A DNA stretch of 64,000 bases, taken from a virus. The notes under the pieces were generated by a model that saw only the letters and a program-made list of their open reading frames with translations, ran no database searches and had not been told where the DNA came from. This document shows, piece by piece, positions 35,693-60,397 of the stretch (its first letter is position 1; each line of letters opens with the position of its first letter). The stretch lies in IMG/VR virus record IMGVR_UViG_3300029258_005088, one strand, 5' to 3'. The translations under genes were made by a program, and so were the position numbers.

Positions 35693-35926
35693 TCATGGTA
35701 AGCCCGCGTTCTTGTGCATGTACCCGTCCATGTAGCCTTGATCGAATACGGATGCTTTCTTCGACATCTTCTTGGACTTCTTCTTTTTCTTTTTGTCCTT
35801 GGGATTCATCTTGCGCTTGTTGGCGGTGGCATAGAACACGCGCTTGCCTTCTTCCTCGCCGTAACGCTCCTGCATCTCTTTCATGACCTTGTCGCCACTG
35901 CCTTTGTAATATTCCTTGACCGGCAT
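35693..35926 (-). CDS. Small basic protein ending in the GYMDGYMHKNA motif
   Basis: 77 aa; start overlaps the upstream stop; RBS GGAG. Confidence 0.65.
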   Translation of the reverse strand: MPVKEYYKGSGDKVMKEMQERYGEEEGKRVFYATANKRKMNPKDKKKKKKSKKMSKKASVFDQGYMDGYMHKNAGLP

Positions 35927-37173
35927 TACACAACTCCCTCTCTAAGTTTGTTATCTTTATTTGCAATGGTCATTCCACTGGATAATGCCTTAAGCACCAG
36001 TTTAAACGCATTTCTATCTGTCAGGTACAGATACCTCATAGCGTCCGTCTTGGAGTGCTTCTTTCTAAGAGAATCATACTTATCCAGTGCCTTTCCGACC
36101 GCTGCGTATTCTTTCTTGTCAAAAGGTGACGGGATGCCCATGGATTTTGCTCTCTCATTGGACCTATGGAAAAGCCTTGCTCTACTCTGAGTCTTCCCTG
36201 GTTTTTCAGATTCCTGTAACCAAATCTTAGACGGACCTCCTAGACGGCTGAAATTTTCCGATCTGGTCATATTAGCGAAGTCTCCAACGAACTTCTTCCA
36301 GTTATCGTCTCCTTCCACCTTGGAGGCTATGTACTGTTTGTATTTATCTACCATATTGCCCCATTCCTCATTCAAAGAAGAGTCTGGGTATAGTGACTGT
36401 TTCACAGGACTGTCATTAGTTATTAAGGCAGTGTTCTTCTTAGGATCGGCCCAATAATTCATTATGCTCCTAAGTTCTTGATACGGCTGTGCCTTGTTCT
36501 TCATATCACTCTCTAACCAAGCCCTCTCTTTATCCGACGGCTCGGTCTTCCATGTCCGTCCATGGAATCGGGCGGCCCTTCTATAGTCTTCGTCTCCTAC
36601 CGGAAGCCCTTTCGCAAGATCGAACGCTGGATACTTGACGTCTGGTCCATCTATATCCGGATTGTGTCCTACAGTATAGGCAGGTGCGCGGCTAACATAC
36701 TTTGGAGGCCTTGTGTCTATCCAATGTCCGGTTCTTCCCTTCCAATTCAGATGACCAAAGTCTTTCATTGCTTTCAGCAGTGCCGGATGACAACCTCCTC
36801 CAAGGTTGCAGGCGTCAATATTCAAAGCATAGTCACCCTTCGAGGGCACTGCCCTGCTGACGTGATTCATGATTGTTGAATTTACTAAGTCCTTGTTGTC
36901 TACAGAGTAGGACGACCTTCCGCCACCATGCCCGTGTATACCTACCGTGGGAAGGCCTTTTACCGACCTAAATTGAGATGGGTCATCCTTAAGTCTAGCG
37001 TCGAATGCGTTATCCGGTCTACTGGGAGAATATGCCGTCGTGTATTTCTCGTTAATAGGGGTTGGTCTCCTTATATTATACTTCCAGGCGCTTTTGGCTT
37101 TTGACTGGTTATCTCCGGCTCTCTTGTTCATATAGCCGTCCTGGTAGCCTGTTCTATAGGACTTATCGGTCAT
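35926..37173 (-). CDS. Leader-tagged protein with a clan-CD (caspase / C80-like) cysteine protease domain
   Basis: Leader SYRTGYQDGYMNKRA; strand-His VGIHGHG and strand-Cys LNIDAC dyad pattern. Confidence 0.55.
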   Translation of the reverse strand: MTDKSYRTGYQDGYMNKRAGDNQSKAKSAWKYNIRRPTPINEKYTTAYSPSRPDNAFDARLKDDPSQFRSVKGLPTVGIHGHGGGRSSYSVDNKDLVNSTIMNHVSRAVPSKGDYALNIDACNLGGGCHPALLKAMKDFGHLNWKGRTGHWIDTRPPKYVSRAPAYTVGHNPDIDGPDVKYPAFDLAKGLPVGDEDYRRAARFHGRTWKTEPSDKERAWLESDMKNKAQPYQELRSIMNYWADPKKNTALITNDSPVKQSLYPDSSLNEEWGNMVDKYKQYIASKVEGDDNWKKFVGDFANMTRSENFSRLGGPSKIWLQESEKPGKTQSRARLFHRSNERAKSMGIPSPFDKKEYAAVGKALDKYDSLRKKHSKTDAMRYLYLTDRNAFKLVLKALSSGMTIANKDNKLREGVV

Positions 37174-39222
37174 TCACAGCACTCCCTTGGTCGCTCTCTG
37201 CAGAGATATTCGTTTTCCGCTCTCGAAGAGGGGCTTGACCTTGTCCAGCCTGGTCCCTGTCTGGCGGGCATACTGGCTGTTTCTGAAAGATTGTCTGAGG
37301 CGCTCGGCGTTTTCCGCCGTGGGATTGACCATGAGAGCGTTCACGGCGTTATGGCCCTGTTGGAACTCCTTGAGATTGTCTCCCAGTGCATAGGCATGGA
37401 TCTTGAGCCAGTTCTGCATCATGGGGTTGAGTTTGCGCCAGTTCGGGTTCCAGGCATCGAGCTGTGTCGGGACGATTTTCTCGAGGTGGTGCTTGGTCGC
37501 CGCCCAATCCTCTTTGGTCTTGATGGTGCCTTTGCCGCTGCGGAGCTGTTTGAATCTGTTGTTCCCCCAGATCTTGGAAAGCTTGGAGGTGTTGGCCGGA
37601 CTCATGTAATGCCCGGTACCGATCGTGGGATAAGGCTCCTTGACGCCTTCGGCATTGGTGACGTGCTTGGCGGTAGGGCTGAAACCCTCGGCCTTGCTGA
37701 GCCACGGGTGTATGGCTTCATGGGCCTTGTCTCCGGCAGTCTTGGACGCCATTCTCGTAGAAGGATCTTTATTTACGAGCCCCAGGAAATCTTCTGCCAT
37801 ATCCCATAATAAGGCTTCCCATTCTTTACCCTTCCCTTCCCTCTCCATTATGCTGCGCAATGCCCGTAGATCAAAAGAATCATCAACCATAGGCTTCAGT
37901 TCACGTTTTATCTTTCTGTCCGGAGACGTCGCCCACTGGAGAAATGCAAAGGCTTTCTTCTTATCGCTGACGTCTACTCCCATGTGACTTGCGAGTGCCT
38001 TGAGATTACCTAATCTTGCTTCTCTTTCTATCTGCCGCATGGTGTAGGGAGCGGTGTGTCTCTTACTTCGAGCCTCTATGAACTTTCCTTTTTCATCCGT
38101 ATCCTGCACCATCTCGCTCATCTTATCGTGAGCCCACGTGTCCGCACTAAGGTGTCTCTTGTTTCTAGCCGCATTCTCCCTTACGACATCTTGTGCCGTT
38201 CCCTTTCCTTCGCCCTTAAGCGGGTACCATTTTCTGGCATGCTGAAGTACGTGTCGATACTCATGAGGAAGGAGTCGAGCCGTATGAGGCCTTATCCAAA
38301 TATCTGGGATGCGTTTACCAGGAGAGTATATGAACCCTCCTCCGCTTTTGTCGGGAGCGTCCTCATTTCTAAGAATCTTGTACGGAAAAGGCCTGTCCAA
38401 TGCCTTGTCATCCAGCCTCATGGCAAACCTATTCTTATACCCTTCTTTCTTCCTATACTCTCTGGCCTGCTCAAGGGACTTCTTGAAGGCTTCTGGACTA
38501 GGATACGTACTGCTTATTACTCTCCTAGGCGTATCCACTCCTGAGACAATAGGCTTTACGACAGGGACGGCTTTCTTAGAAATTTCTTTACTAGCATCTG
38601 CAGGTACCTCTCCCTTGTCTCCGGCAGTCTTCGCTATGATCTTGCCGTCCTTCAGCTCGTAAGGAGCCCATACCTGGCCTTCTACATAGTTGCCCGTCAG
38701 CCTGGGCAGCATGTCGAGCTTGCCTGCTTTCCTAAGCTCCACCAAGGTCATCAGCGTCTTGACCTCCTCACTGAGATTGCTCTTGTTGTGTCGCTCTCTA
38801 CGGAGATAATCGAAGGAGTCGCCGGGCGAAAACGTGGAAGCCTGCAGAAGCTCTTCGTCTATAGGATATACCTGGGTCGACTTGATATCGTGACCCCATG
38901 CCTTCTTCTGCTTGTCGGTACGGAAATACAAAGGATGCTTCAACTGTACCTTGTCGCCGAGTTTCTTGACGGCCTCCTCTCGTAGCGCCTTTTCAAGTCG
39001 AACACGGTCCTGCTTGTACCGATCGGTGTTCTTGTCTGGGGTATGCTCTTTATACCACTGCAGAACCTGCTCCTGCTCCTCTGGAGGCATATCGAGGAAA
39101 TTTCCGGGAAGCTTGCCTCCACGACCATAGTGATATCCCTCGACCTTGGCAGTCTTGTCCATATACCCGTCGAGATATCCCGAGGATCCAGACAACAGAA
39201 CTGCTGTGGTTACCGACATCAT
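37174..39222 (-). CDS. Three-domain polyprotein: ART-like / zincin metallopeptidase / T4-type lysozyme
   Basis: Domains separated by KTA motifs at aa 23-25, 198-200 and 494-496. YHY...FSPGDS...YVEGQVW; HEYRH...EREARLG; AEGF...PTIGTGH. Confidence 0.7.
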   Translation of the reverse strand: MMSVTTAVLLSGSSGYLDGYMDKTAKVEGYHYGRGGKLPGNFLDMPPEEQEQVLQWYKEHTPDKNTDRYKQDRVRLEKALREEAVKKLGDKVQLKHPLYFRTDKQKKAWGHDIKSTQVYPIDEELLQASTFSPGDSFDYLRRERHNKSNLSEEVKTLMTLVELRKAGKLDMLPRLTGNYVEGQVWAPYELKDGKIIAKTAGDKGEVPADASKEISKKAVPVVKPIVSGVDTPRRVISSTYPSPEAFKKSLEQAREYRKKEGYKNRFAMRLDDKALDRPFPYKILRNEDAPDKSGGGFIYSPGKRIPDIWIRPHTARLLPHEYRHVLQHARKWYPLKGEGKGTAQDVVRENAARNKRHLSADTWAHDKMSEMVQDTDEKGKFIEARSKRHTAPYTMRQIEREARLGNLKALASHMGVDVSDKKKAFAFLQWATSPDRKIKRELKPMVDDSFDLRALRSIMEREGKGKEWEALLWDMAEDFLGLVNKDPSTRMASKTAGDKAHEAIHPWLSKAEGFSPTAKHVTNAEGVKEPYPTIGTGHYMSPANTSKLSKIWGNNRFKQLRSGKGTIKTKEDWAATKHHLEKIVPTQLDAWNPNWRKLNPMMQNWLKIHAYALGDNLKEFQQGHNAVNALMVNPTAENAERLRQSFRNSQYARQTGTRLDKVKPLFESGKRISLQRATKGVL

Positions 39223-39230
39223 ACCTTCCC
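39148..39230. repeat. 83-bp direct repeat, copy 1 (RBS + start + leader)
   Basis: 6 mismatches against 40206-40288. Confidence 0.95.
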
Positions 39231-40280
39231 TTTGTGTTTGCCGGGCTGCTGGTCCCTAGCCATAAGACTGCCCTCATCGATGAGGTCCTGCATCAGCTCA
39301 CGTTCCTCTGGCGCCAGGGCCTTGAGAGCCTTCTCTGCGTCCATGGTCTCACGCAGCTTGTCGTACTTCTTGATGAGTGGGTAGATCTTCTTGTAGTACT
39401 CGTCGTAGAACTTGAGGTAGCCGGCGTCATCTTCCTTGGCCTTGGACCTGCCGTACTCGTTGTCGCTGTATCCGTAGTTCCGCGCACGCTGGGCCTTGAG
39501 AAATTCGGCTGTGCGTGCAACCTGCGAAGCATTGAACTGCCCGGTACGCGTCTTTGCCTTGGCCGCATCCGTCTGGCGCTTTATGGAACTCTGTAGGTGG
39601 TCTGCTTTCGGAGCGTAGGGCATCATGCCCATGCTTATGAAGGTGCCTTCCCCACCCCGCATATTCTCTCGTCTGGTTTCTTCATGCTTCCTATCCGCAC
39701 CCTCGAAGGTGTTCGGATACTTGCGCAGTGCCGCACGCATCTTGGCATCGTTGAGCCTCCGATTAGCACTTCTGATGGCGGCCTCGGTTTCATACCTTTT
39801 GCCTGCTATTCCAGTGTGTATCGTCTTGGGGAACGTCTTGGGGTCCGGCAGTGCCGCACGCTCGGCTTCCAGCATCTTCAATCTCCTGGCATCGATCCGC
39901 CTCCCATGCGCACCTTGCTCCCTATTGGTCCACTCTATCATCTTTCGGAGACGTGCCTGATCTGCAGGGTTCTTCGCAGCCTTGAGCTGCTTCTCGTAGT
40001 CCTGGCGTATCTTATCGTAGCCCTGGTAATCCTTCTCCATGCCCTGCAACTGTTGATGAGTAACATTCTTTGGCTTTTCCGCCTTGATTGGCTTCGTCTT
40101 GGATGTAGTTGTCTGCGGAACCTTGATCTTACCGTAGTTCTTGGAGACTCCGCCTTCGACGGGCAGTGCTGCATGCTTGTTCAGCTCGCTCACGAATCTC
40201 ACGCCGGCAGTCTTGTCCATGTACCCGTCGAGATATCCCGAGGATCCAGACGACAAAAATGCTGTGGTCACCGACATCAT
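39219..40280 (-). CDS. Leader-tagged basic hypothetical protein
   Basis: Start reassigned to ATG 40280 (ATGA overlap; 353 aa). Leader MMSVTTAFLSSGSSGYLDGYMDKTA, then a second leader-like segment RFVSELNKHA. Confidence 0.65.
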   Translation of the reverse strand: MMSVTTAFLSSGSSGYLDGYMDKTAGVRFVSELNKHAALPVEGGVSKNYGKIKVPQTTTSKTKPIKAEKPKNVTHQQLQGMEKDYQGYDKIRQDYEKQLKAAKNPADQARLRKMIEWTNREQGAHGRRIDARRLKMLEAERAALPDPKTFPKTIHTGIAGKRYETEAAIRSANRRLNDAKMRAALRKYPNTFEGADRKHEETRRENMRGGEGTFISMGMMPYAPKADHLQSSIKRQTDAAKAKTRTGQFNASQVARTAEFLKAQRARNYGYSDNEYGRSKAKEDDAGYLKFYDEYYKKIYPLIKKYDKLRETMDAEKALKALAPEERELMQDLIDEGSLMARDQQPGKHKGKV

Positions 40281-40288
40281 GCCTTCCC
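40206..40288. repeat. 83-bp direct repeat, copy 2
   Basis: Matches 39148-39230 at 77 of 83 positions. Confidence 0.95.
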
Positions 40289-41887
40289 CATAAACTCCAG
40301 TGTTTTCTGAACCAGCCAAGACCGTCCGGAGGCTTCCTTCTTCATAGACGAGCCTTCTTCTTCGGGAGCTCCGTCCATTTCCTCGACCTCTTCCTCGCCT
40401 TCTTCGCGGAAGTCCTCATCGGTTGGATCCAGCTCCTCGAGCAGAGCTTCCAACTCCCCGACGTGTACCTTCTCCTCGTCGGCTATATCCTGAAGAATCT
40501 GTGCGGCACGCCTGTTCTCGGTGCTGTCGGCCACTGTTTCGTAGTGCTTGATCGCCTTCTGCTCTTCTATGATGGCGTCTCGAACGGCACGAGTCAGTTC
40601 ACGACGACCCAGCCTGGGAAGCTCCTTGACGTTCTCCATGCTACTCGCAGTCTTGGCTATATGTCTCGTCTCGAAAAGCACCTTGATCAGTGCCGCCCGT
40701 TTCTCCTGGCTTATCATAGGTGCCTCCAATTCTGAATACGCGTATTCACTTTTGCCTTCCTTACCTTCCATCTTCTCGAGGTCTGTGTAATAATCAGGCA
40801 TTTCTGTAAGATGATCCAACGCGATTTCTTCTGCAAGCTTCTGGTCTCTTGTATGTTCCTTTTCGACCTTCTTCCCCTTCTTGAGCTCTTCTTTGTCGAC
40901 ATCCTTCGGAGTTACGTTTTCTTTGTCGGCAAGGCCCGTAGTATCGGATCCGACTTTCTGCAGGGGCTTCAACACTTTCGAGGTATCCCCACGGGCGACC
41001 CACTTCTTGAACTGGTCCATGGTAAGTGCGGTGATGGAGCCGAGACCGTCCCAGCCTTTCTCGTAGTTGTCTAGATATCCCTTGCGGGCATCCTTCTCGT
41101 TGGTGAAGCCCAGCATGCACTTGTGCTCGTCGAAGCCTTTGCCTCCTTTGTTCGTCTGGTTGACGACGAACACCATCTCAGAGTCTACGTCCGGTCCGAT
41201 GAAGACGTCTACGTGATCGCCGTCGGCGTCGGACTTAGTCCGCTTGATGTAGCCGTAGTGATGCTTCATCAGGGTCTTCCATTCCGTACCGTCCGGGGAT
41301 TTGCCTTTACGATACTGGCCCTTTAGATTCTCGATGGTGATGTCCATACCATGCAGGCGGGTATGACCCTTGCGATAATTACCTGCTTCGGCCTGTTCCT
41401 TGGACTTCGGCTGAACCGGCGTGCCCTTGATCTTTAGGGAAGCTTCTTTTTCACCCGGCTCCTGCGAAGGGGCTCCATATATCTCGGCCAGTTGTAGCTT
41501 TCTCACCTCCTCGTTACTTAGATAGTTGCCCTCGTCATCGATGGGATGATATAAGTCCTCTCCGCTATTCAACTGCTCGGTCTCGAACTCGGTCAGATAA
41601 CCACGCCTCATTTCCCACAATTTCTTTTCTAGGTACTTACCCAGTGCGTCCTCTTCTTCCGTACCTCCTGTGCCATAAGACGAAGGTATCGCCGCATTTA
41701 TTTTTGTATACAGCCTCAGTCTTTGTCCTGGAGTGAGTTCTTCCCAGTGTGCTTCTTCCAGCTCATTCTGGGCTATTCCTGGTACTGTCTGTGTGGCTCC
41801 TTCGTCTACCACAGCGTCTCGGGCCTCCTTCTGCTGCTTCGCCTCCTTCCACGAAAGGATCATATTCGTAAAATCTGTTCTAGTCAT
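40277..41887 (-). CDS. Polyprotein: unknown domain / InPase / DUF5661-like / ferritin-like
   Basis: Start reassigned to ATG 41887 (536 aa). GNYRKGH...IEN...YGYI...DGDHVDVFIGP...FDEHKCMLGF; VEKEH...IALDHLTEMPDYY; EEQKAIKHYE...EEKVHVGEL. Confidence 0.75.
   Translation of the reverse strand: MTRTDFTNMILSWKEAKQQKEARDAVVDEGATQTVPGIAQNELEEAHWEELTPGQRLRLYTKINAAIPSSYGTGGTEEEDALGKYLEKKLWEMRRGYLTEFETEQLNSGEDLYHPIDDEGNYLSNEEVRKLQLAEIYGAPSQEPGEKEASLKIKGTPVQPKSKEQAEAGNYRKGHTRLHGMDITIENLKGQYRKGKSPDGTEWKTLMKHHYGYIKRTKSDADGDHVDVFIGPDVDSEMVFVVNQTNKGGKGFDEHKCMLGFTNEKDARKGYLDNYEKGWDGLGSITALTMDQFKKWVARGDTSKVLKPLQKVGSDTTGLADKENVTPKDVDKEELKKGKKVEKEHTRDQKLAEEIALDHLTEMPDYYTDLEKMEGKEGKSEYAYSELEAPMISQEKRAALIKVLFETRHIAKTASSMENVKELPRLGRRELTRAVRDAIIEEQKAIKHYETVADSTENRRAAQILQDIADEEKVHVGELEALLEELDPTDEDFREEGEEEVEEMDGAPEEEGSSMKKEASGRSWLVQKTLEFMGKA
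40733..40748. repeat. TGAATACGCGTATTCA palindrome (copy 2)
   Basis: Exact 16-bp palindrome in an inter-domain linker (encodes EYAYS). Confidence 0.95.
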
Positions 41888-44800
41888 TCGTATTCCTCTC
41901 TGACCTATGCGTGTAACCGTCCATATACCCGTGCGAGGCGTATTTCTGTCCACTAGGAAGTGATCGGTTGTCCACTACCAAAGGAAGCTCCTCTGAAAGC
42001 ATGTCAATGAACTTAATCTTCTTATCCGGAGTCAGTGTGTCGTAGTATTCAAGGAACTGCCTGGCACCGTGCTTATAAGGACGGTCTCCTTCGAAGAACT
42101 CCGTCAGTGCCTTTTTCGCCTCTGCCTTATTCCTGGCTCTACCTCCCTTGTTGTACCACCACGCTTTGATATCTCCTAGCCGTACCTCTCTCTCCTTATC
42201 GTCGATGAGGAAATATGCTACGTCGGACTGGCGGTCACTCCATTTGCTATCTACTATGAGTTTTCCATCGGCGTCTTTAACCCGCTCTTTCGTCTTGGGG
42301 TCCGTTTTAAATACGGTCCTTGTCGGGGTCATGTCAGGTTCGAACTCTTTCATATAGGCCATACTTCTCTTGAGTATATCCGGATGCCTTGCGTGTCCTA
42401 GGTTTTTGTTCAAACCAACCGTCTGATAAAAGCGAGGGTATTGTTTGTCCCCTACCTCGGGTATCTGGAAATTATGCCTGCTCTCGTGGATTATGGAATG
42501 ACCTAGGTCGGACACGTCTTTCTTTCCTCTAGCTCCTACGGTCATAGTAGGATGAACGCTCTCTACAGGACCGCTTTTCAAACCGCCCCCCTCCGGATAC
42601 ACGAAATCACTTTTGGTTCCTGCATTATGCTGGGCTCCGTACCACATCTTAGGGTCGAACTTCATCGGAATATACCTTTGAGGAAATCTAGTGGGCATGT
42701 CGATGCGCTCGACCCGCATGTTCGGAACCATGCCCGTGGCCTTCTGGTAGGCCAAGGCATCCTGAACGGACTTGTCTAGATTGCTGGGCTCTCCTGGCTT
42801 GTACACGCCTTGGTGATACCATCCACCGTACTGGTGGTGAAGAGGGAAGTACGTATCTACCTTTCCCTTGTTTTTACCCTTGTCCTCGCCCTTCCAGCCC
42901 CATTCGGCCATCTCCCAGGCTTTTTTATTTCTCTCGGCCCTTGCATTGAACTCCTTCTGCTTGGCTGCCTGAGCCGCCATCATCTGCTTCTTGATGGCCT
43001 CTATCTGCTTCTGATACGCACCTATCCTGTCTTGGTATCCCTTACCCATGTATTTCATCTGGTACTTATCCGTGGCAGGTGCCTTGGTGTCTACGTCAAC
43101 GGTCTTGACGGGAGGAGTTAATACAGGGTTGTTCACGGCCTTCTTGGCAGGTGTCTTGGAAGCTTGTTCGGCAATCGAAGGAACAGCGGGAGCCGCTCCG
43201 GAACTAGCCTCCTTCTGCTGTTTCTTCTTCTGACGTTCTTGCCATTCCTCGTACTTCTTCGGATTGTCCTTGAAGTACTGCAGCATATCGCCGCATGCAA
43301 CTTTCTGGACCTTGCCCGGAGGTCTTATCATCAGAGGGTACGGTCTATTGCGTTCCTCGTCCATAGGCATGATCCCGGACTTCTCGTCACCGGGAAGGAA
43401 CCCGTGCTTCCTGTAAAGGGATATCAGAGCTGCCAGACGGGCTTCGTATTCCTCGTCGTCGAAGTTCTCGTGCTCCTGCAGGTTCTCGTCCAGCTCGAAC
43501 GGCCCGGCTCTGAGAGCCAGGGTCTTCTTCTTGTTGTCTTTGACGATCTGTTTCAAAAGCTTGTCGGCAAAGCCCTTTCCTCGAAAATGAGGATCCGTGT
43601 GGATGTCTCCGACCACGCTGTAGTCGCCGTTGTCCTTCACGGTTGCATAGGATGCATCCACTCCCTTGTCGGTTACGAAATACTCCTTGACCGGTCCGTC
43701 CCCGTGAGTGGATACCTTGGCCTTCTTCTGCATGTCGCCACAGGCCACTTTCTCGTTGTCTATGAGATCCCAGGCGTCGTCCTTGGACATACCTTTCTCC
43801 TGAAGATCCCACGCTCTACGTATCCTGTCCTTTGCAGCGGAAGTCTTCACAGAGATGTCTACGTCCGGACTCGCCGCTGTAGCCGTATGCTCTCCCTCGT
43901 CTCTCTCCTTGAACCGAAACTCTTCGGATTCCGACAACTTCCTAAGTAGACGTACCAGACGAGCCCGCTTCTTGGGATCGTCCTCGAAGATGTGATAGTC
44001 CCAGTCCCTTCCTTCCGGATGAGGTCTTCCGTAAAAATCAGCTCTTCCCCTAGAGCCCGTCAGTTCTGCCTTACGGATCAGACGCTTCTTGAGGTCTGCC
44101 TTCTTCTGCATATTACCCGTATTCTTGTAGACCTTCTTCGCTATGTCATCCCAGATCTCTCTGCAGTGCTGGTCCTTGATGCACGTGATCTGCAGCTCCA
44201 TGCCCAGATGCTCTCTGCACCACTTCTTGATGGCGCGTCGGGCCACGCCGTCGTTGTCTCCGGCCACTCGAGCGGTGAATATCTTGATCTTCTTGCCCCG
44301 GCCGATATAACGCTTCACGCGGTCGACCATCTTCTGGATGGGCGCTCCGATGACGTCCGGACCCTTCCAGCCGTCGTATTTGGCCAGAGTACCGTCGAGA
44401 TCCACGCCGATCCACTCCTCGTCGGAAGCCTCCTTGTCCATCCCCAGAGGATCTCCGTAGTCCATCGTAAGCTCGGTATCTTCCGGAATGTCCCGCAATG
44501 CCTTGAAATAGCAACCATCGGGAGCGGGGTCGAATACGACGTTTGGATCCGATGCGTGGTTGGTGTAGCGTGCTCCGATCGTGCGATGCAGCTCCCTGTC
44601 CAGTGCGAGTGCGAACGACTCTCCCCGTTTTACGGGCTTGGTGACGAACGCGCCTTTTCCCTCTATGTCGGAATCCCTTATCTCTATGGGATCCTCGTCT
44701 GGCTGGGGAATGAGGTCGTCTGCATACTCCGAGTTTTGCCTATGCTCTTCCGCACTCGTTCCGCTCTCCTGCAGGTAGGTCTCGAAATCTGAACCCGTCT

Positions 44801-45026: not shown

Positions 45027-45730
45027 TTCTTCGCACGTTCCGCCATCTTGGCAAGAGCCTCTTTCTTCTTTTTCTCCTCGTCCGCCTCTCCGGAGGCGAG
45101 TGCGAGTTCCTTTTTCTGCAGCTCGAGTTCCTTCTTCTGCAGAGCTTCCATGGCCTTGAGCCTGTTCTGGATCTTCTTCCGTTCGATGACGGTCATTATC
45201 GTGAGAACGAGGGGAAGGCCTATGGCAACTCCTCCCGCTGCGTAGGCATATGGCTTGATCTGGTTCCAGGTGTCCTGTCCCGCCGATGTTATGCCTCTGT
45301 TGATCTGTCCCTGGATATCCAAGTCGGAGTTTGTCTTATCGACTATCTCCTGAACTTTATCCCGGGCGCGGTTGAGACTGGCGTCCACTAGCTCTCGAGA
45401 ACGCCTATCAGCCAAGTCATAGCTCTTGTTTGTCTGCTCTCTCACTCTTTCCGCAGCGGCGTCGATTATGTCTTCATACTCCCTTTTATACAGTCTTCCT
45501 GTCTCTTCAGCCGTGCGGGCAAGCTCGTCTCGCCACTCTCGTCCCTGGTCTCGCCTGGTACGGCCCACTAGACCTTCCACGCCTTTGGAGACTGCCCAGC
45601 CAGGACCTTCCGTGACAACGGTCTTCGCCACGTTCCATGGCGAGAACTTCTCCTTGAGACTTTCATACAAGCGATCACCGAACCCGGATTCCTTGTGCAT
45701 GTAGCCAGCTATGTATGCTTCGTTGTTCAT
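45023..45730 (-). CDS. Leader-tagged coiled-coil protein with one TM helix
   Basis: MNNEAYIAGYMHKES leader; AYAAGGVAIGLPLVLTIMTVI helix. Confidence 0.65.
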   Translation of the reverse strand: MNNEAYIAGYMHKESGFGDRLYESLKEKFSPWNVAKTVVTEGPGWAVSKGVEGLVGRTRRDQGREWRDELARTAEETGRLYKREYEDIIDAAAERVREQTNKSYDLADRRSRELVDASLNRARDKVQEIVDKTNSDLDIQGQINRGITSAGQDTWNQIKPYAYAAGGVAIGLPLVLTIMTVIERKKIQNRLKAMEALQKKELELQKKELALASGEADEEKKKKEALAKMAERAKK

Positions 45731-45739
45731 ATTGATCCT

Positions 45740-46795: not shown

Positions 46796-46798
46796 GCT

Positions 46799-49700: not shown

Positions 49701-51205
49701 TCGGGAAGCAGGTAGTCCAGGTCTTTCTTGTGGACGTACTTCATGTCGCGTCCCTTGGACAGAGTCGGTACGTACGAGTCTCCGGGCTCCGACGATCCGG
49801 GCATGCCTATGTTGGCTTCCGTGGCGTCTCTCACGCCCACCCATTCCTTCTTGCCGGTCTTCGCATTGATGAGCTGGGTGTAAAGCTGCCTGTCGGGACC
49901 GCGTCTGACGTTTCTGGCCAGGCGCATGTCGAGACCTATGCGGAGCGACTCCGGGGCCACCACGGGATCGATGTAGCCGAGGTACGACGGTTGTACGTTT
50001 CTGGACTCCTTCGGCGCGGAGTCTATGCTGGGAAGGGCACCCTCTCCGAGGCGGCTGACTCGAACGTTCTGGTCGTAGATGTCGGAGGGATTGATCTCTT
50101 CGATTGCCTGAGCCACTCCCGTGGCAGTGAACAGATGGCTGACGTGCGCGTCCAGAAGGGAAGGCGGTATCTTCTTCATGTCCTGACCGCGGCCGGTAAG
50201 CTTCCACAGAACCTTGCGCAGGGCGCCGCCCTGATCGTTCTTGATCTTCTCCGCCAGGAAATCGGAGACGTCGTATATGTCCTGGTACGCAAGGCTGTCG
50301 CGGCTATCTGTATCGGCTTTGCCTTTGCCAACGTTCAGTATCTTGGTCGTAGCCGCCATGATGGCTTCCGGAGTGGCGTTCATGTACTCGGTTCCCAGCG
50401 TCCGCCGAGTTACCCTGGGACTGAGCTCGGTCCTCGAGAACTCGCCTATGACGTTGGCCTGGAATTCCGGATCGTAATCGGTCTCGGAAGCCTGCTTGTC
50501 CATGTTCTTGAACCCGACTGCCTTGATGAGTTCCTCTCTGGCCTCGTCCCTCTGGGGACGGAACTGCTTCAGGAAATTGACTGCGTAGGGGCTGTTCTGC
50601 AGAGCTTTGTTCTTCTCCGCGAGCTCCTTGCCCCACGTCTTCTCTATGCGTTCGTGAGGAATGCCCATGGCTCTGAGCACGGGGTACATCGGAACCTTGC
50701 GTCCCTTGTAGCGCATGAAGAAATGCCCGCTGCCCGGTTCCATGTATACTCTGAAGCTCGATCCGGTACGGGGTTTGGCATTGAACTGGGCCTCGATGTT
50801 TCCGTCGTCGGTAACCCTGGTGTATACACCGGGCACGAGACGAAACTGCTTCGCTATGGTGTATTCGACGCCCTTGCGGATGTAGGTCCCTCTGTCCGTA
50901 AGGTGAGGGACGTTCATCAGGCGCTTCTGGTTCGTCCTTCCTACTACGGTGCCCGTGGCGTTGTCCACGAGCTCGTAATTACCGACGAGCTTGTCCGATA
51001 GGGATTGTCCGGCCAGTATGGCCTTCTTCTGATCCTTGAGGGAGAAGCTGTCCTTGCCGGAGAACTTTGGATTTACCACGCGCAGAGTGAACTGCTCGTT
51101 AACTGCCGGGGGCGACTCCTGAACCGCTTTCAGGACTTTGTCCCGGAGGTCCTGGCGAACCCTGGGATAGTCCGTATAATCGAGAAGTTGTTGTTCGTTC
51201 ATCAC
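46799..51205 (-). CDS. rpoB: DNA-directed RNA polymerase beta fused to the N-terminal half of beta-prime
   Basis: Beta motifs: YLGYIDPVVAPES, LLMGNKFARQA, GDKLSGRFGNKGVV, YKLQH...GDMEIQAL. Then beta-prime motifs: GGLFD, PVLPPRFRP, NRAPTLH and the catalytic loop AMDFDGD (47063-47083). Confidence 0.95.
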   Translation of the reverse strand: MMNEQQLLDYTDYPRVRQDLRDKVLKAVQESPPAVNEQFTLRVVNPKFSGKDSFSLKDQKKAILAGQSLSDKLVGNYELVDNATGTVVGRTNQKRLMNVPHLTDRGTYIRKGVEYTIAKQFRLVPGVYTRVTDDGNIEAQFNAKPRTGSSFRVYMEPGSGHFFMRYKGRKVPMYPVLRAMGIPHERIEKTWGKELAEKNKALQNSPYAVNFLKQFRPQRDEAREELIKAVGFKNMDKQASETDYDPEFQANVIGEFSRTELSPRVTRRTLGTEYMNATPEAIMAATTKILNVGKGKADTDSRDSLAYQDIYDVSDFLAEKIKNDQGGALRKVLWKLTGRGQDMKKIPPSLLDAHVSHLFTATGVAQAIEEINPSDIYDQNVRVSRLGEGALPSIDSAPKESRNVQPSYLGYIDPVVAPESLRIGLDMRLARNVRRGPDRQLYTQLINAKTGKKEWVGVRDATEANIGMPGSSEPGDSYVPTLSKGRDMKYVHKKDLDYLLPDGDEMFSDTANLVPLKSGVKGMRLLMGNKFARQALPLVGRQAPLVRTSNPKGGSEEERMGVYMGAVKASKPGVVKAVYKDHLKMSYDDGTEETIDLYDNHPYARKTFIRNTPKVKAGQKVGKGAVLATSNYTDPDGVSALGTNLRVAYLNYDGKVFEDAVVISQSAAKEKLTSEHMYTTKFEKDKDVFTDKAKFQALYPSRFSKSQLGTIGDDGVVKTGTVVNYGDPMVLAVKEREPTPQSMGRKTRTDDSVVWKHEFPAVVTDAEPSKKGYNINVRANVPMEEGDKLSGRFGNKGVVAEVIRDEDMPRDSKGRPIDVIFSPLGIHSRTNPAQKSEVVLGKVAEKTGKPYVLPGFLDEDMKKFAAREAYKNNVKANEDLYDPKTGKTIPGILTGMTYVYKLQHTAEGKGKSRGTSRYTAEDQPARGGKEGAKHLGDMEIQALQAHGADQVLKDLKIIKGQKNSNFWRQLKLGETPTQPDTPLVYQKFKSLIRAAGINLHEDKDKDSVFAMTNNQAEALTGAREIKNPSTYDAKNLRPIPGGLFDPEATGSMGNGDKWSYIKLPAPMPNPIMSEPLRRILGMKQKEFDDMVAGNTEVEGRSGSEALSYMLSRVNMPSLKQRTLEQIKHGAKSKRDDAVKLFRYIDAMEKHDVKPEDFLMTRVPVLPPRFRPISRQSDMTMVADPNYLYKTLLENIQDYKDTDGMPKDIRSEAWGNVWKSYNTLVGMTDPDQEQLQQKNVGGMLKQIFGKGSPKFGFVQRRVIGTNIDVSGLGVVAPNPSLKLNQIGMPEKLAWNLYGDFVVREMVGKGYPATQAAKAVEAKSPPAYKALQSVIKKRPVLVNRAPTLHKYSNMAFTPVLTKGKTIQVSPTIVGPFAMDFDGDTASFTVPVSQKAVDQANELMMPEKNLISSRFGKPAYTPSNEYLQGLYFATKPPKKGQTRIFKSMQEAMMAFSRGEITIDDPIRVVED

Positions 51206-51208
51206 TCA

Positions 51209-52955: not shown

Positions 52956-53277
52956 TTGGGTTTTCCTTTTCGGCCAAAGCCTGCTGTCCTTCGATCTCTT
53001 CCTGTTTCCTGCGGCGCTCGAGTTCCGCGATGAACTCTTCGAGCTCGGCCGCCTCGAGGGCCTTCTGGACGGCTTCTTCATCCATCGGAGACGGACTCGT
53101 GATCTTCGAGTGAGTCAGGCCGGCACCCGCTCCGAGAAGGATGGGAGCGACCAGAAAGTAAGGAGCCAGGCTCTCTGCGACTTCCTTGCCCGTCCTTACC
53201 GTTTCGGCACCCCCTCTGAGGAGAGATGGGTATGCTTCCTTGTGCATGTATCCGTCTAGATATGCCTGTTTGTTCAT
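52933..53277 (-). CDS. Leader-tagged small TM protein
   Basis: MNKQAYLDGYMHKEA leader; YFLVAPILLGAGAGL helix. Confidence 0.7.
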   Translation of the reverse strand: MNKQAYLDGYMHKEAYPSLLRGGAETVRTGKEVAESLAPYFLVAPILLGAGAGLTHSKITSPSPMDEEAVQKALEAAELEEFIAELERRRKQEEIEGQQALAEKENPSARTLHI

Positions 53278-54083: not shown

Positions 54084-54808
54084 CTGTTACCTACCATGTT
54101 CAACCGCATCGGCTTTTGCTGGGCCTGAAGTTGGTTTATCTGCGCCTGGAGCTTGGCTATCTCCGACTGTGACGCGCCCTGGTTCTTTCGTCTGAAAAGC
54201 GTGGCCAGCAGGAATACGAGAGCCCCTCCCCCGAGAAGCCACGGACCGTACTTGGTGACGTACCCGCCTATCTTCTTGTTCATCTCCGCCTTGATCTTCG
54301 GTATGGCCTCTTTCTGTATGATCTCGCGGGCCTTGGGACTGATGGAGTAATACTTCTTCGCCGTCGTGTAATCGCCTCTGGCAGCCTCTTCGCGTATCTT
54401 CTGCTCCACGCCTGCCTGCATGGTGTCGTACACCGACTGAGGCAGTCTCTTGGTGAGCTCGTCCATGGGCTCGGGCTTGTACGGATCCAGAAGCCATCCG
54501 TAGTCTTTGTTGTTCTTCAACGCCCACTTGGTCATCGTCCTGTCGAAGTACCCTTGATGCGGACTGACCCAGTTGGGATCCGGACCCTGACGGACTACCG
54601 GAGCCATTTCCTTGACCTTGTCGATTCCCCGGGAAGCCACGTCCATGGCTTTGTCCGCCCAGGACTGCTTGGCGGCGTTCCACTTGTCGATGTACTTTCC
54701 GAGATCTACCTCCGGAACGTCTCCCTCGGGAGGCTTCGGAGGCGTCGGAGCCGCAGGACCTGCCGCGCTCTTGCAGATATACCCTTGTATGAAAGCTGTC
54801 GTATTCAT
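54080..54808 (-). CDS. Leader-tagged protein with a C-terminal TM helix
   Basis: MNTTAFIQGYICKSA leader; PWLLGGGALVFLLATLF helix. Confidence 0.65.
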   Translation of the reverse strand: MNTTAFIQGYICKSAAGPAAPTPPKPPEGDVPEVDLGKYIDKWNAAKQSWADKAMDVASRGIDKVKEMAPVVRQGPDPNWVSPHQGYFDRTMTKWALKNNKDYGWLLDPYKPEPMDELTKRLPQSVYDTMQAGVEQKIREEAARGDYTTAKKYYSISPKAREIIQKEAIPKIKAEMNKKIGGYVTKYGPWLLGGGALVFLLATLFRRKNQGASQSEIAKLQAQINQLQAQQKPMRLNMVGNR

Positions 54809-57174
54809 CCTACCATGTTGTTCGGTGCTGGCATTGGAGTCGGGGACGCCATCGCCGGACCCGCCGCAGTGGGCTGCTGCAACGTAGCCGTTGGTTGTTG
54901 CGGGCTCTGATTCACGGCTGGGTTCTGTGCCGATGCCATCTGCTGAGCCTGTCCGACCTGTTCGTTCTGCATGTCCATGCGCTTGTTGTTCATGTCGATG
55001 CCTGCCTGTTGCCCGCTGAGATTCATCTCGGCTTGCTTCTTCTTGACGTCTGCATCTGCCTTGGACTGCTCTAGAGCGGCCTGCGCCTTCATCTCGGTGA
55101 CCTTGGCCTGATGCCTAAAAACTTCGGAGGGATCCGGTCCGGATTGTTGCTGAGGCTGTTCCGGAATCATGGCTCCGGGATCCTGTGGAAGGGCCGCATG
55201 CTTGTCGGTCAGGCACTCCCACCACATCGGAGTCTCGTTTCCGGAAAACTCTTTGAACATGTTGTTACTTTTCCTCGGAGCTTTCGGTGAAAATAGAGGG
55301 CTCGTTCGTGGCGAGGGAGTGGGAGTAGGATCTGGCTTGGAAAACTCCTGCCATTTCCTGTTCTCTTCCGGGGTCGACACAAGGCTGCGTGCCACGGCGT
55401 TTCCTTGTAGCGTGGCCCTATCCTGCAATGCCTTCGGAGCGGCGCCTGGATGGGCGGTTACCACGGGAGGTACCCCACCTGCCTTGGTCCTGGCCGCTGT
55501 TCGTTTTCTGAGCTTGTCGAGAACGCCTTGCGTGGTGTAGGGCTCGGAGGCATGCTTATCGGTCAAGCACTCCCACCACATCGGAGTATCGTCGCCGGCA
55601 AATTCTTTCCACTCATCGTTGTTGTCGGGTATAAGCTCTCTAACCATGGCCTCGCCTTCCTTTCTTGCTTTGTCCTGCACAGCCTTTGGAGCGGCTCCCT
55701 TATTCTTGGTCACCTTGGGAGGTTCGTATGTCCCCATACGACCATGCATCATGGCGTTTACACTGCCTGGTTGTTCCCTCTGTATCTTGTCCCGCATAAG
55801 TCTCTTTTTCGTCTGATCCGCGAGGAGAGCCTCCACACCGGGAAACGGCTTTCTGTCTTTCCACAGCTTTCTCAAACCAAGCTTGCGTGCGAGATTTCTC
55901 AACTCTTTCTCGTCTCGGTACTTCGGATGCCAGCCGGCGTATCTCTTGGAGAACGGCACTCTGGACTCATTGGGGTCATTACCGCTTGGAGTCTCGAACC
56001 ACCCCTCGTAAAACTTGTTCATCTCGTACGGATCCTGTCCGTAATAATACCGTCTGGCCCTCTCCATGGTGTCTCTGTATTCGTCGGACAACGCCACTAG
56101 ATCTTCCCATGAATTGGTGTTCCTGGCGGCTGTTTCGAAATCTGGAAGCTTACCTACCTTGGACTCTCCGAACAAGGAGAATCCCTCTCCGGTGAACGGC
56201 AGCCAGTTACGCTTGTCCCTGGAGTATTCGTATCCGGGAACGCCTCTTTCCGCATGCTCCACCGTATCGTTCAGGCGATTTTGTAGGAGCCTGAGCTTCT
56301 TGTCTACGGACTTGGTATTTCCCTTGCTTTTCCTGATCTTGGCCCTCTCAAGTTCCAATTCGGCCTTTCTCTTGACCAGGGCGGCTATGTCTTTCGTATA
56401 GGCGCCTTTGAGAGACGTGTTCATGTCGATTTCGTCCATGTCCTTACCAAAACCCGCCTTGGCGTTTTCAACCGTCTTGTCCACCCAGTTCTTCTCGGCT
56501 TCTCTGCGTGCCTTTCGAAGATATCCTCCGGCTTGTCTCTCCTCACCCTTTCTGTTGGTCGCGCTCGCGATCCGCTTCATCTCCGATACGGAGTTCATGT
56601 TGCCGATCTTCTGAGCTTCGGTCTCATTGGCGGAATTGTCGATATCCAAGACGTTTTGATAGTACATCTTCTTCTGCATGTCTATCCCTTTCGCCTCGCC
56701 TGCCGCCTTCGTGTTCTGGATGAACTCCTTGAACTTGCCCTTGGACCTGGCCTCGAACAGTGCTTCGTACGCCTTTGGGAGACCGATATCGAATACGTCC
56801 ATGACGAATGCCGCCAAACCACCGAGGAACGTTCCCATCAACGCTCCCTGAGCGCCACCCATGAGACCTCCGATCCCCGCTCCGAGAAGAGCGCCTGCAC
56901 CGCCGCTGAACCATTTTCTCTTGGTTTCGTCGGTCAGCATGCCGAGAAGCCAGTCCTTGTTGAGATCCGCGGCCGCCATGTCGAAATATTCCTGACGAAG
57001 CTGTGTGTACTGCTTCTTGAGCTCCGGGTGGTTCTGGGCGTAGACTCTGTACTCGTCGCCGACGAAGCCGGGAGATGCCGGAATGAACGCTCTCTGAAAC
57101 GCGTTTAGCTTCCCTGGAGCGGCAGTCTTGAAAAGGTATCCGTCTTCGTATGCTGTAAACCGTGATGCGTCCAT
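54805..57174 (-). CDS. Large leader-tagged protein with a TM hairpin, internal repeats and a Gln/Pro-rich tail
   Basis: MDASRFTAYEDGYLFKTA leader; GGAGALLGAGIGGLMGG hairpin; duplicated TPMWWECLTDKHA. Confidence 0.65.
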   Translation of the reverse strand: MDASRFTAYEDGYLFKTAAPGKLNAFQRAFIPASPGFVGDEYRVYAQNHPELKKQYTQLRQEYFDMAAADLNKDWLLGMLTDETKRKWFSGGAGALLGAGIGGLMGGAQGALMGTFLGGLAAFVMDVFDIGLPKAYEALFEARSKGKFKEFIQNTKAAGEAKGIDMQKKMYYQNVLDIDNSANETEAQKIGNMNSVSEMKRIASATNRKGEERQAGGYLRKARREAEKNWVDKTVENAKAGFGKDMDEIDMNTSLKGAYTKDIAALVKRKAELELERAKIRKSKGNTKSVDKKLRLLQNRLNDTVEHAERGVPGYEYSRDKRNWLPFTGEGFSLFGESKVGKLPDFETAARNTNSWEDLVALSDEYRDTMERARRYYYGQDPYEMNKFYEGWFETPSGNDPNESRVPFSKRYAGWHPKYRDEKELRNLARKLGLRKLWKDRKPFPGVEALLADQTKKRLMRDKIQREQPGSVNAMMHGRMGTYEPPKVTKNKGAAPKAVQDKARKEGEAMVRELIPDNNDEWKEFAGDDTPMWWECLTDKHASEPYTTQGVLDKLRKRTAARTKAGGVPPVVTAHPGAAPKALQDRATLQGNAVARSLVSTPEENRKWQEFSKPDPTPTPSPRTSPLFSPKAPRKSNNMFKEFSGNETPMWWECLTDKHAALPQDPGAMIPEQPQQQSGPDPSEVFRHQAKVTEMKAQAALEQSKADADVKKKQAEMNLSGQQAGIDMNNKRMDMQNEQVGQAQQMASAQNPAVNQSPQQPTATLQQPTAAGPAMASPTPMPAPNNMVG
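55196..55608. repeat. Internal direct repeat (55196-55254 and 55550-55608) encoding KEFxGxxTPMWWECLTDKHA
   Basis: Shared gcactcccaccacatcggagt core with similar flanks. Confidence 0.85.
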
Positions 57175-59061: not shown

Positions 59062-59065
59062 AGGC

Positions 59066-60058: not shown

Positions 60059-60389
60059 CGGGTTCCTCCAAGCTGGTAGTCTGTGCTGCTACCTTCTGTT
60101 TCAACGCGGCGACCTCTTGCTCCTTTTCCGACAAGCCCTGCTGGAGTTCTTCCTCGGTGTACGCCTTGGGCGGGGGTACGGGCTTGAGGTAAGCGGCCAT
60201 TGCGAGTGCCTTGTCCTTGTAGAGATGCTGCAAGATGGCGGCCAGTACTGGGCGGGTGACTGGCTGCATGCTTTCGAGATTGCCTTCGCCGTCGAACAGA
60301 TAATGATACCTTCCGACGATTACCGACGCTCCGTCCGGACGCTTGTAGCAGATCGGATCTCCGGTCCACATGATTTTTGTTTCGGACAT
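60048..60389 (-). CDS. Small hypothetical protein
   Basis: ATG 60389 (ORF track uses TTG 60395); C-terminal coiled coil. Confidence 0.55.
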   Translation of the reverse strand: MSETKIMWTGDPICYKRPDGASVIVGRYHYLFDGEGNLESMQPVTRPVLAAILQHLYKDKALAMAAYLKPVPPPKAYTEEELQQGLSEKEQEVAALKQKVAAQTTSLEEPDEQ

Positions 60390-60397
60390 AATCAAAT

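What the first reader, a model, noticed from the sequence alone, without database searches (positions are those of the whole stretch)
35693..57174. Shared GYxDGYxxKxA leader: a probable capsid-targeting tag on diverse cargo
Ten instances occur in otherwise unrelated proteins. N-terminal: GYQDGYMNKRA (37173), GYLDGYMDKTA (39222 and 40280), AYIAGYMHKES (45730), AYLDGYMHKEA (53277), AFIQGYICKSA (54808), AYEDGYLFKTA (57174). Internal with its own RBS: GYMDGYLVKYA (46192). C-terminal: GYMDGYMHKNA (35705-35737) and GYMDGYTHRS (41901-41930). A related YFEGYRAGLIKRA is in the scaffold. A short aromatic helix ending in the putative cleavage motif parallels the T4 capsid-targeting sequence, but this motif is not one I recognise as described. 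It would amount to a portable bind-package-cleave tag and may be usable for capsid engineering.
Basis: partly seen in the sequence, partly recalled or inferred. Interest (0 to 1): 0.92.

Follow-up and report, generated by a model that had tools for sequence, protein, structure and literature searches.

The report
Shared packaging-type leader on phage cargo proteins
A large uncultured phage puts the same 15-residue peptide, which ends in what looks like the cutting site of its head-maturation protease, on a dozen unrelated proteins encoded beside its head genes. It is most likely an address label that loads them into the capsid, as phage T4 does with a different peptide, but no packaging or cutting has been measured.

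Summary
All ten instances are at the stated coordinates on the minus strand. Seven are N-terminal, one is internal and two are C-terminal. Codon usage shows selection on the peptide, not on a DNA repeat.

The window lies in a 201-kb phage contig, which carries at least two more copies. Related IMG/VR genomes and nine metagenome contigs carry arrays of the tag. The consensus is M-N-K-x-A-[FY]-L-[ED]-G-Y-[ML]-x-K-x-[AS], and conservation stops after residue 15. The protein bodies are unrelated and mostly basic.

The tag sits among head genes, a virion-type RNA polymerase and polyvalent enzyme proteins. The 483-aa neighbour folds like the T4 gp21 prohead protease. K-x-A-[S/A/G] is strongly enriched in scaffold-like proteins and conserved at the capsid protein N-terminus, also in the cultured phage Arash. 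N-terminal tags are followed by K-x-A, and C-terminal tags are preceded by it.

The best reading (about 0.6) is a T4-CTS-like capsid-targeting propeptide with a new sequence and a new protease rule. Binding partner, packaging and cleavage are inferred. The one complex prediction gave no verdict.

This scan has found T4-type leaders on other genomes before. This motif is different and was not found in the searched literature.

The parts
57121..57174 (-). N-terminal tag of the 789-aa orphan protein (gene 54805-57174): core AYEDGYLFKTA
   Evidence: The body has no relatives.
54764..54808 (-). N-terminal tag of the 242-aa protein (gene 54080-54808): MNTTAFIQGYICKSA
53233..53277 (-). N-terminal tag of the 114-aa protein (gene 52933-53277): MNKQAYLDGYMHKEA, the canonical form
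   Evidence: Gene call confirmed.
46151..46192 (-). Internal tag in the 351-aa ORF (45740-46795): MNVGYMDGYLVKYA. It follows an in-frame ATG with an AAGGAAGG box upstream and lies at a domain boundary.
   Evidence: It is an insertion relative to the G001 orthologue. Use of the internal start is inferred.
45686..45730 (-). N-terminal tag of the 235-aa protein (gene 45023-45730): MNNEAYIAGYMHKES
41901..41930 (-). C-terminal tag of the 1048-aa polyvalent protein (41880-45026; SET and GNAT domains): GYMDGYTHRS, directly preceded by QKYAS
40206..40280 (-). N-terminal tag of the roughly 353-aa protein (ATG at 40280; ORF 39219-40319): GYLDGYMDKTA after a 14-residue prefix
39148..39222 (-). N-terminal tag of the 682-aa protein (37174-39222). 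Its leader is a paralogue of the one at 40280.
37117..37173 (-). N-terminal tag of the 415-aa protein (35926-37173): GYQDGYMNKRA
35705..35737 (-). C-terminal tag of the 77-aa basic protein (35693-35926): GYMDGYMHKNA, preceded by SKKAS
26175..27626 (-). 483-aa prohead protease. The N-domain has the T4 gp21 / herpesvirus assemblin fold and the C-terminal domain is helical. The candidate self-cleavage site LSKVAS (aa 242-247) lies in a disordered linker.
   Evidence: AF2 model with pLDDT 84.7. Z 10.5 to 5jbl_A and 5.6 to VZV protease. K244/A246 are invariant in 67 homologues.
24913..26154 (-). 413-aa scaffold-like protein with 8 K-x-A-[SAG] sites. The tag-like segment YFEGYRAGLIKRA lies at 25444-25482, inside a confident long helix.
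22736..23716 (-). Major capsid protein (326 aa). The candidate propeptide cut QKAAS is at aa 25-29 (K-x-A at 23633-23641).
   Evidence: K26/A28 are at least 90% conserved in 61 homologues.
46799..51205 (-). Fused beta / beta-prime (N part) RNA polymerase, untagged, in the middle of the cargo cluster
   Evidence: The Arash homologue gp206 is the most-detected virion protein.
32379..34211 (-). C-terminal part of RNA polymerase beta-prime (610 aa), which bounds the cargo cluster on the head-gene side
   Evidence: Arash gp216 is in virions.
40277..41887 (-). Untagged polyvalent protein (InPase, DUF5661, rubrerythrin-like). Probable ATG at 41887. K-x-A-[SAG] is enriched: 4 sites against 0.67 expected.

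Best explanation
The peptide is a capsid-targeting propeptide, working in the manner of the T4 capsid targeting sequence (CTS).

The unit is about 15 residues long: M-N-K-x-A-[FY]-L-[ED]-G-Y-[ML]-x-K-x-[AS]. In this window it often takes the form GY(M/L)DGYMxKxA. It is probably an amphipathic helix.

Proposed steps, all inferred:
1. The tag brings whatever protein carries it into the assembling prohead. It may do so by docking on the scaffold core, perhaps by imitating the conserved aromatic helix of the scaffold protein.
2. The gp21-like head protease then cuts after K-x-A. This removes the tag and frees the cargo inside the capsid.
3. The cargo leaves with the DNA at infection.

What is shown: the shared tag, its terminal position, its unrelated bodies, its genomic home, the fold of the protease, and the enrichment and conservation of K-x-A.

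What is inferred: binding, the partner, packaging, cleavage and injection.
For: 1. The tag is real, terminal and under peptide-level selection.
2. It is a family trait. There are 31 canonical N-terminal copies on 12 contigs. M1, A5, G9 and Y10 are invariant, K13 is present in 28 of 31, and nothing is conserved from residue 16 on. The bodies are unrelated, and 20 of 31 are basic, like T4 internal proteins.
3. Location. In the window, G001 and G004 the tags lie in the same two syntenic regions and nowhere else in 130-160 kb. In L106 the tagged genes sit between the RNAP beta-prime C gene, the 749-aa head gene, the 398-aa head gene and the protease. In the window the tagged genes overlap their neighbours in one operon-like run.
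4. The neighbours are typical injected cargo: RNAP that is abundant in Arash virions (PMC10585845), InPase, SET and GNAT polyvalent proteins, and a LysM on one tagged protein.
5. The protease has the T4 gp21 fold.
6. K-x-A-[SAG] is enriched only in the five head-assembly proteins and one polyvalent protein. It is conserved in the protease and at the capsid protein N-terminus, and it is present in Arash head proteins.
7. N-terminal tags end in K-x-A. Four of five C-terminal tags have K-x-A within 10 residues upstream, as expected if the tag is cut off either way.
8. The T4 precedent (PMC9026906): ten residues suffice for targeting, targeting and processing residues are separable, Alt is also processed at its C-terminus, and the IP genes are hypervariable while their CTS is kept.
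Against: - No measurement of any step exists.
- The tag has no sequence likeness to the T4 CTS, and the inferred cut after Ala differs from the Glu rule of gp21 and of the phiKZ-type proteases.
- The RNA polymerase, the 558-aa polyvalent protein and other cluster proteins carry no tag, so the tag is not needed for every packaged protein.
- A second tag cluster (L104 3116-6513; G001 140-146 kb; G004 20-27 kb) lies among genes of unknown function, beside glycosyl-, methyl- or sulfotransferase genes.
- In G001 about half the tags lack the adjacent K-x-A.
- Arash, the one cultured relative, has the K-x-A pattern but no tag in the 44.5-kb locus (L001) that I scanned, so nothing can yet be tested in culture.
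- The Arash virion proteome reports 96-100% coverage of scaffold-like proteins. This neither supports nor excludes processing.
Confidence: 0.6

Rival explanations
1. The tag is a processing propeptide only. It recruits or positions the head protease, or keeps harmful cargo inactive until cleavage. Entry into the head depends on something else, for example riding on the RNA polymerase or on the body of the protein.
For: The tag directly abuts K-x-A. Untagged proteins of the cluster, such as the RNAP, are packaged in the relative Arash. The T4 literature itself considers that propeptides may serve activation as well as targeting.
Against: The tag works on either side of the candidate cut (N- and C-terminal copies), so it cannot occupy fixed protease subsites. 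In G001 the core persists without an adjacent K-x-A. The protease must itself be inside the prohead, so a protease-binding tag would also be a targeting tag.
Confidence: 0.12
2. The tag is a working part of the mature proteins. It could be an oligomerisation or docking helix, for assembly of an ejection complex, for binding the virion RNA polymerase or the portal, or for insertion in the host envelope. On this reading it is not removed.
For: Several tagged proteins carry hydrophobic or glycine-zipper stretches. Tagged genes flank the RNAP genes. The pattern of small and aromatic residues (A5, G9, F6, Y10) suits tight helix packing, which is inference.
Against: Conservation ends exactly at the K-x-[AS]. 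Tags at C-termini are preceded by K-x-A. Double tags and tags on enzymes, on basic proteins and on a LysM protein do not suggest one shared mature function.
Confidence: 0.13
3. The tag is the recognition or modification site of a phage enzyme that acts on its two tyrosines, for example by sulfation or glycosylation. This would resemble the shared leaders of peptide-modifying systems and would not be a sorting signal.
For: Tag arrays lie beside glycosyl- and methyltransferase clusters in the window phage and G001 and beside sulfotransferase and GT2 genes in L108. An acidic residue next to Tyr is typical of sulfation sites, which I state from general knowledge.
Against: No single enzyme family accompanies the tag in all contexts. 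L106 has tags inside the head module with no such enzyme in 9.9 kb. Synteny alone explains the neighbourhood in the window, G001 and G004. The K-x-A logic and the terminal position in both orientations are not explained.
Confidence: 0.07
4. The repeat is a DNA-level recombination module that shuffles gene cassettes, and the peptide has no role of its own.
For: The cargo set differs completely between relatives while the leader is kept. Conserved leaders could favour cassette exchange, as has been proposed for the T-even IP loci.
Against: Synonymous codons vary freely at the conserved residues and the DNA is not conserved, except in one duplicated pair. The strict DNA patterns find few loci, while the peptide recurs widely.
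Confidence: 0.03

Closest known systems
Capsid targeting sequence (CTS) of phage T4 internal proteins IPI, IPII and IPIII and of Alt, processed by the prohead protease gp21 (Mullaney & Black 1996; review PMC9026906)
   Same: It is a short terminal peptide shared by unrelated, fast-evolving, often basic proteins. It ends at the consensus site of a gp21-fold head protease. Scaffold proteins carry many copies of the same site. Processing also occurs at a C-terminus (Alt). The cargo genes are hypervariable while the leader is kept.
   Different: There is no sequence likeness: MNKxA[FY]LEGY[ML]xKxA against MKTYQEFIAE. The inferred cut is after K-x-Ala, not after L/I-x-Glu. The unit is 15 residues, not 10. 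It is also used at C-termini and internally, sometimes in tandem. The phage clade is not T4-like: it has a fused virion RNA polymerase and a small 326-aa capsid protein. Nothing has been shown experimentally.
Propeptides of ejection and inner-body proteins of phiKZ-like giant phages (phiKZ gp175; SPN3US gp245; PMC10052503, PMC5694885)
   Same: The virion carries a multisubunit RNA polymerase and many ejected proteins. A gp21-family protease cuts at a three-residue motif that is repeated within propeptides.
   Different: In those phages the propeptides are mostly long (111-254 residues) and family-specific. They are not one short portable tag. The motif there is [S/A/G]-x-Glu.
Herpesvirus assemblin with the scaffold maturation site
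   Same: The protease fold is shared (Z 5.6 and 4.2 to the VZV and HCMV proteases). The cut is after Ala and before Ser, which I state from general knowledge. The protease is joined to a helical scaffold-like C-domain through a cleavable linker. Cleavage detaches a short terminal peptide that holds the scaffold to the shell.
   Different: Herpesviruses do not use the tail as a portable tag for foreign cargo. The P3 Lys preference seen here is not a herpesvirus feature.
Encapsulin cargo-loading peptides
   Same: A short terminal peptide on diverse cargo directs them into an HK97-fold shell.
   Different: Those peptides bind the shell protein directly and are not cleaved. Here the partner is unknown, and a protease site is part of the unit.

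Membership tests
T4-type capsid targeting sequence system | One short terminal peptide shared by otherwise unrelated proteins encoded with the head genes | tested here: met
T4-type capsid targeting sequence system | The phage encodes a gp21-family (assemblin-fold) prohead protease | tested here: met
   Model pLDDT 84.7. Z 10.5, rmsd 3.1 over 145 of 165 residues to 5jbl_A, well above the next unrelated rows.
T4-type capsid targeting sequence system | The tag ends at the protease's cleavage consensus, which also recurs in scaffold and capsid propeptides | tested here: inconclusive
   K-x-A-[SAG] is enriched in five head proteins and conserved in the capsid protein and the protease. The tag ends in K-x-[AS] in 28 of 31 cases. 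That this motif is the cut site is inference.
T4-type capsid targeting sequence system | Sequence likeness to the T4 CTS and the L/I-x-E rule | tested here: not met
   The consensus shares nothing with MKTYQEFIAE. No Glu at P1.
T4-type capsid targeting sequence system | The tag is sufficient to load a foreign protein into the head and is absent from mature virions | not testable with these tools
   Needs prohead assembly and mass spectrometry.
Encapsulin-type cargo-loading peptide (direct binding to the shell protein) | The peptide docks on the inner face of the HK97-fold shell protein | tested here: inconclusive
   The single complex prediction of tag with capsid protein gave no verdict.
Leader recognised by a dedicated modifying enzyme (RiPP-like logic) | One enzyme family is encoded next to the tagged genes wherever they occur | tested here: inconclusive
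   Transferases are nearby in the window phage, G001 and L108. None is in L106. No common family was identified, and the short contigs limit the test.

The most novel reading that the evidence does not exclude
The tag is a condensed copy of the most conserved helix of this clade's scaffold protein ([YF][YF]E[GSA][YFH]L..G..K[RK]A), bracketed by protease sites. By imitating the scaffold it gives any protein, at either end, a seat in the prohead core, and the Ala-specific gp21-like protease then releases it. On this reading it is a second, independently evolved capsid-addressing code. Its cut rule is closer to that of herpesvirus assemblin than to that of T4, and it could be used as a defined 15-residue loading tag.
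Probability: 0.3. Interest if true: 0.78.

Novelty: new variant of a known kind. Interest (0 to 1): 0.62.

Why it matters
If the reading holds, a widespread group of 150-200-kb environmental phages with a virion RNA polymerase loads a large and rapidly changing set of proteins into the capsid through one 15-residue label. The cargo includes enzymes, basic proteins and membrane-active proteins.

This would give three things:
- a simple sequence rule for finding injected phage proteins in metagenomes;
- a second worked example, beside T4, of how heads sort cargo, with a different protease specificity (after Ala, as in herpesviruses);
- a short tag that works at either terminus for loading foreign proteins into capsids.

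The K-x-A rule can be tested now in the cultured Salmonella phage Arash.

Tried and rejected
- Complex prediction of the capsid protein (61-row alignment) with the 40-residue leader (11-row alignment): no answer. Score 0.00 against a mark of 0.32, and controls were not run. This is no evidence either way. The scaffold, protease C-domain, portal and RNAP were not tested, because only one job was allowed.
- Exact DNA pattern for GYMDGYM in IMG/VR: three chance hits that lack the rest of the motif.
- tblastn of the 23-residue leader against 50,697 cultured-phage records: no match at E up to 10.
- Literature search for six motif strings: nothing relevant.
- Foldseek on the whole protease model: no hit at E below 0.001. 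T4 gp21 appeared only at rank 32. VIA-align then placed it first.
- Pfam and PHROGs on most tagged proteins and on the head proteins: no families.
- PDB sequence search with the 715-aa and 625-aa proteins: nothing, so which of them is the portal remains open.
- Homologue search for the 789-aa tagged protein: it found only itself, so conservation of the tag among orthologues could not be measured for that protein.
- A beta-hairpin reading of Y-x-D-G-Y was considered and set aside. The wider consensus L-E-G-Y-M-x-K is rich in helix formers, and the similar scaffold segment is modelled as a confident helix. The tag alone folds with low confidence.
- The Arash virion proteome gives coverage only, with no termini, so it does not settle whether cleavage occurs.


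Full report
**What is in the sequence.** All genes of the window run on the minus strand. A six-frame scan finds the motif ten times between 35.7 and 57.2 kb, always in the coding frame, and finds nothing comparable elsewhere in the 64 kb.

Seven copies lie within 30 residues of the start codons at 57174, 54808, 53277, 45730, 40280, 39222 and 37173. One is internal (46192-46151). Two close the 1048-aa and the 77-aa proteins (41930-41901 and 35737-35705).

The strict core [AG][YF]xxGY occurs 7 times in the first 30 residues, against 0.07 expected from shuffled proteins. The Gly and Tyr codons vary synonymously between copies, so the peptide is selected and not a DNA repeat. Only the leaders at 40280 and 39222 are near-identical at the DNA level, which points to a recent duplication.

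The internal copy follows an in-frame ATG with AAGGAAGG seven bases upstream. It is an insertion exactly at a domain boundary when compared with the orthologue in the closest relative. A nested start is plausible but not shown.

**What the surroundings are.** The cluster lies between a 625-aa gene, whose Arash homologue is annotated as portal, and the head-assembly block.

- In its middle is a 1468-aa fusion of RNA polymerase beta with the N part of beta-prime. At its lower end is the 610-aa remainder of beta-prime.
- Among the tagged and untagged genes are polyvalent proteins with InPase, DUF5661 and rubrerythrin-like domains, and with SET and GNAT domains.
- In Salmonella phage Arash, the nearest cultured relative (29.6% identity in the polymerase), the homologous polymerase subunits are among the most abundant proteins of purified virions (PMC10585845). 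That preparation contained 116 proteins, so it was not clean.
- Downstream follow a 715-aa protein, 309-aa and 529-aa proteins, a 483-aa protein, an acidic 413-aa scaffold-like protein, 146-aa and 214-aa proteins, and the 326-aa capsid protein.

The 483-aa protein was folded with 67 homologues (pLDDT 84.7). Its first 233 residues match the T4 prohead protease gp21 at Z 10.5 (rmsd 3.1 over 145 of 165 residues). The next matches are the varicella-zoster and cytomegalovirus proteases, at Z 5.6 and 4.2, and unrelated folds score lower. In relatives an intein sits right after the invariant Ser175.

**The K-x-A motif.** K-x-A-[S/A/G] is far above shuffle expectation in exactly five proteins of the head block:

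| Protein | Observed | Expected |
|---|---|---|
| 715 aa | 5 | 0.85 |
| 529 aa | 6 | 0.89 |
| 483 aa | 5 | 0.82 |
| 413 aa | 8 | 1.12 |
| 146 aa | 5 | 0.35 |
| 558-aa polyvalent protein | 4 | 0.67 |

It is at background in the tail and other genes.

In 67 protease homologues K244 and A246 are invariant, and they lie in the only long disordered linker of the model. K38 and A40 are at least 90% conserved. In 61 capsid protein homologues K26 and A28 are at least 90% conserved, while the 25 residues before them vary.

Arash shows the same pattern. There are seven, six and five sites in gp220, gp223 and gp225, and LVKEAG lies at residues 25-30 of its capsid protein.

This is the signature that T4 (L/I-x-E) and the phiKZ-like phages ([S/A/G]-x-E) show for their prohead proteases. 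I therefore take K-x-A followed by a small residue as the probable cut site of this clade. That is inference. No terminus has been measured, and the Arash paper reports coverage only.

**How tag and motif are arranged.** Nine of the ten window copies have Lys or Arg at core position +8, and eight of these have Ala or Ser two residues on. The copies at the C-termini are preceded by the motif instead: QKYAS then the tag in the 1048-aa protein, and SKKAS then the tag in the 77-aa protein. The same holds for C-terminal copies in G004 (NKEA) and G001 (KCAS), but not in G002. A unit that is cut off from either end fits this. A fixed protease subsite does not.

**The tag is a family trait.**
- The window belongs to a 201,176-bp contig, also seen in a JGI sample. 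Walking 23 kb past the window end found two more tagged proteins.
- Eighty related loci were fetched through the polymerase. The tag is abundant only in the nearer relatives.
- The complete 164.9-kb genome G001 (capsid protein 78% identical) carries about ten copies. Half of them are in a looser form without the adjacent Lys.
- G002 has seven. G004 (160.7 kb) has eleven, including a tandem double tag.
- In G001 and G004 the copies fall in the same two syntenic regions as in the window phage and nowhere else in the genome.
- A degenerate DNA pattern for the N-terminal form found nine metagenome contigs with up to six tagged genes in a row.
- In L106, tagged 91-aa and 131-aa genes sit directly between the beta-prime C gene, the 749-aa head gene, the 398-aa head gene and the protease.
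- More distant relatives (L010-L013) have single copies of an F-for-Y form.

Thirty-one canonical copies give M1, N2 (28), K3 (25), A5 (31), F/Y6 (31), L7 (24), E/D8 (23), G9 (31), Y10 (31), M/L11 (27), K13 (28) and A/S15 (28), and no conservation from residue 16 on. Their bodies share one similar pair only, and 20 of 31 are basic. Between the window, G001 and G002 almost none of the tagged bodies are homologous. The 789-aa protein has no relative in 5.8 billion sequences.

**Likely mechanism.** The closest precedent is the T4 capsid targeting sequence. Ten N-terminal residues carry IPIII or a foreign protein into the scaffold core, and gp21 then removes them. Targeting and processing residues are separable, Alt is also trimmed at its C-terminus, and the IP genes are hypervariable while the leader is kept.

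The present system has the same logic with a gp21-fold protease. The tag sequence and the inferred cut rule are different, and use at either terminus appears routine.

The partner is unknown. The scaffold-like protein carries a related segment, conserved across 66 homologues as aromatic-aromatic-E-small-aromatic-L..G..K-R/K-A-Q-D-E. It lies in the best-modelled helix of the protein (residues 204-245, pLDDT 84-95) and follows K-x-A sites. This makes imitation of the scaffold an attractive idea. However, only 18 of 66 homologues fit [YF]xxG[YF], and the spacing to K-R-A is three residues longer than in the tag.

**Rivals and limits.**
- The tag could serve processing only.
- It could be a working helix of the mature proteins.
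- It could be the target of a tyrosine-modifying enzyme. Transferase clusters, including sulfotransferases in L108, lie next to several tag arrays, but not in L106.
- The genes around the second tag cluster have no recognisable function.
- The RNA polymerase and other cluster proteins are untagged.

**Comparison and novelty.** The concept is known from T4 and, more loosely, from phiKZ-like phages and encapsulins. Earlier notes of this scan report many T4-type leaders in other genomes. This peptide, its Ala-type cut rule and its phage clade are not covered by them. The motif strings were not found in the open literature searched nor in cultured-phage records. I file it as a new variant of a known kind.

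Noticed in passing
window 26175-27626; G002 (L097) 6192-8780; G001 (L092) 94489-97080: The prohead protease of three relatives (G001, G002, G004; 862-874 aa) carries a Hint/intein-type insertion of about 380 residues directly after the invariant Ser175 motif (S-x-G-C). The window's copy (483 aa) is intein-free.
   Followed up: partly
window 22736-32316 and Arash locus L001 32595-41473: K-x-A-[S/A/G] looks like the prohead-protease rule of the whole clade, including the cultured Salmonella phage Arash (gp220, gp223, gp225 and residues 25-30 of the capsid protein). This makes the rule testable at the bench now.
   Followed up: yes
L002 9953-15658 (G002): In G002 the polymerase gene is split into 250-aa and 1638-aa ORFs. 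The longer ORF has an extra segment of about 170 residues relative to the window's 1468-aa protein, possibly another intein.
   Followed up: no
window 59062-64000 and beyond (L101 1-9000; L103 and L104): A gene cluster of about 18 kb lies immediately upstream of the cargo cluster. It encodes glycosyltransferases, methyltransferases and a class-V aminotransferase, and it is flanked on both sides by tagged genes. Whether it modifies virion proteins, DNA or the host surface is open.
   Followed up: partly
L108 2362-4212: Two sulfotransferase-like genes and a GT2 gene lie directly upstream of an array of six tagged small genes in an otherwise unrelated 33-kb metagenome contig.
   Followed up: partly
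G004 (L116) about 12770-12850, minus strand: One protein starts with two tags in tandem, 23 residues apart. G001 144418-145890 has two tags 133 residues apart in one ORF.
   Followed up: no
window 53274-54083: The 269-aa protein corresponds to two separate genes in G001 (164 aa and 143 aa). The second of these starts with a tag in G001. The window's fused form has no recognisable tag at the junction.
   Followed up: partly
window 57184-59061 and 30169-32316: There are two portal candidates. The 625-aa protein is homologous to the protein Arash annotates as portal. The 715-aa protein heads the protease, scaffold and capsid block and is rich in K-x-A sites. Neither has a Pfam, PHROG or PDB sequence match.
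   Followed up: partly
window 41880-41887: The last residues after the C-terminal tag of the 1048-aa protein encode the ribosome-binding site and the overlapping ATG (ATGACTAG) of the next polyvalent gene. The longest-ORF start at 41953 is therefore probably wrong, and 41887 is the likely start.
   Followed up: yes
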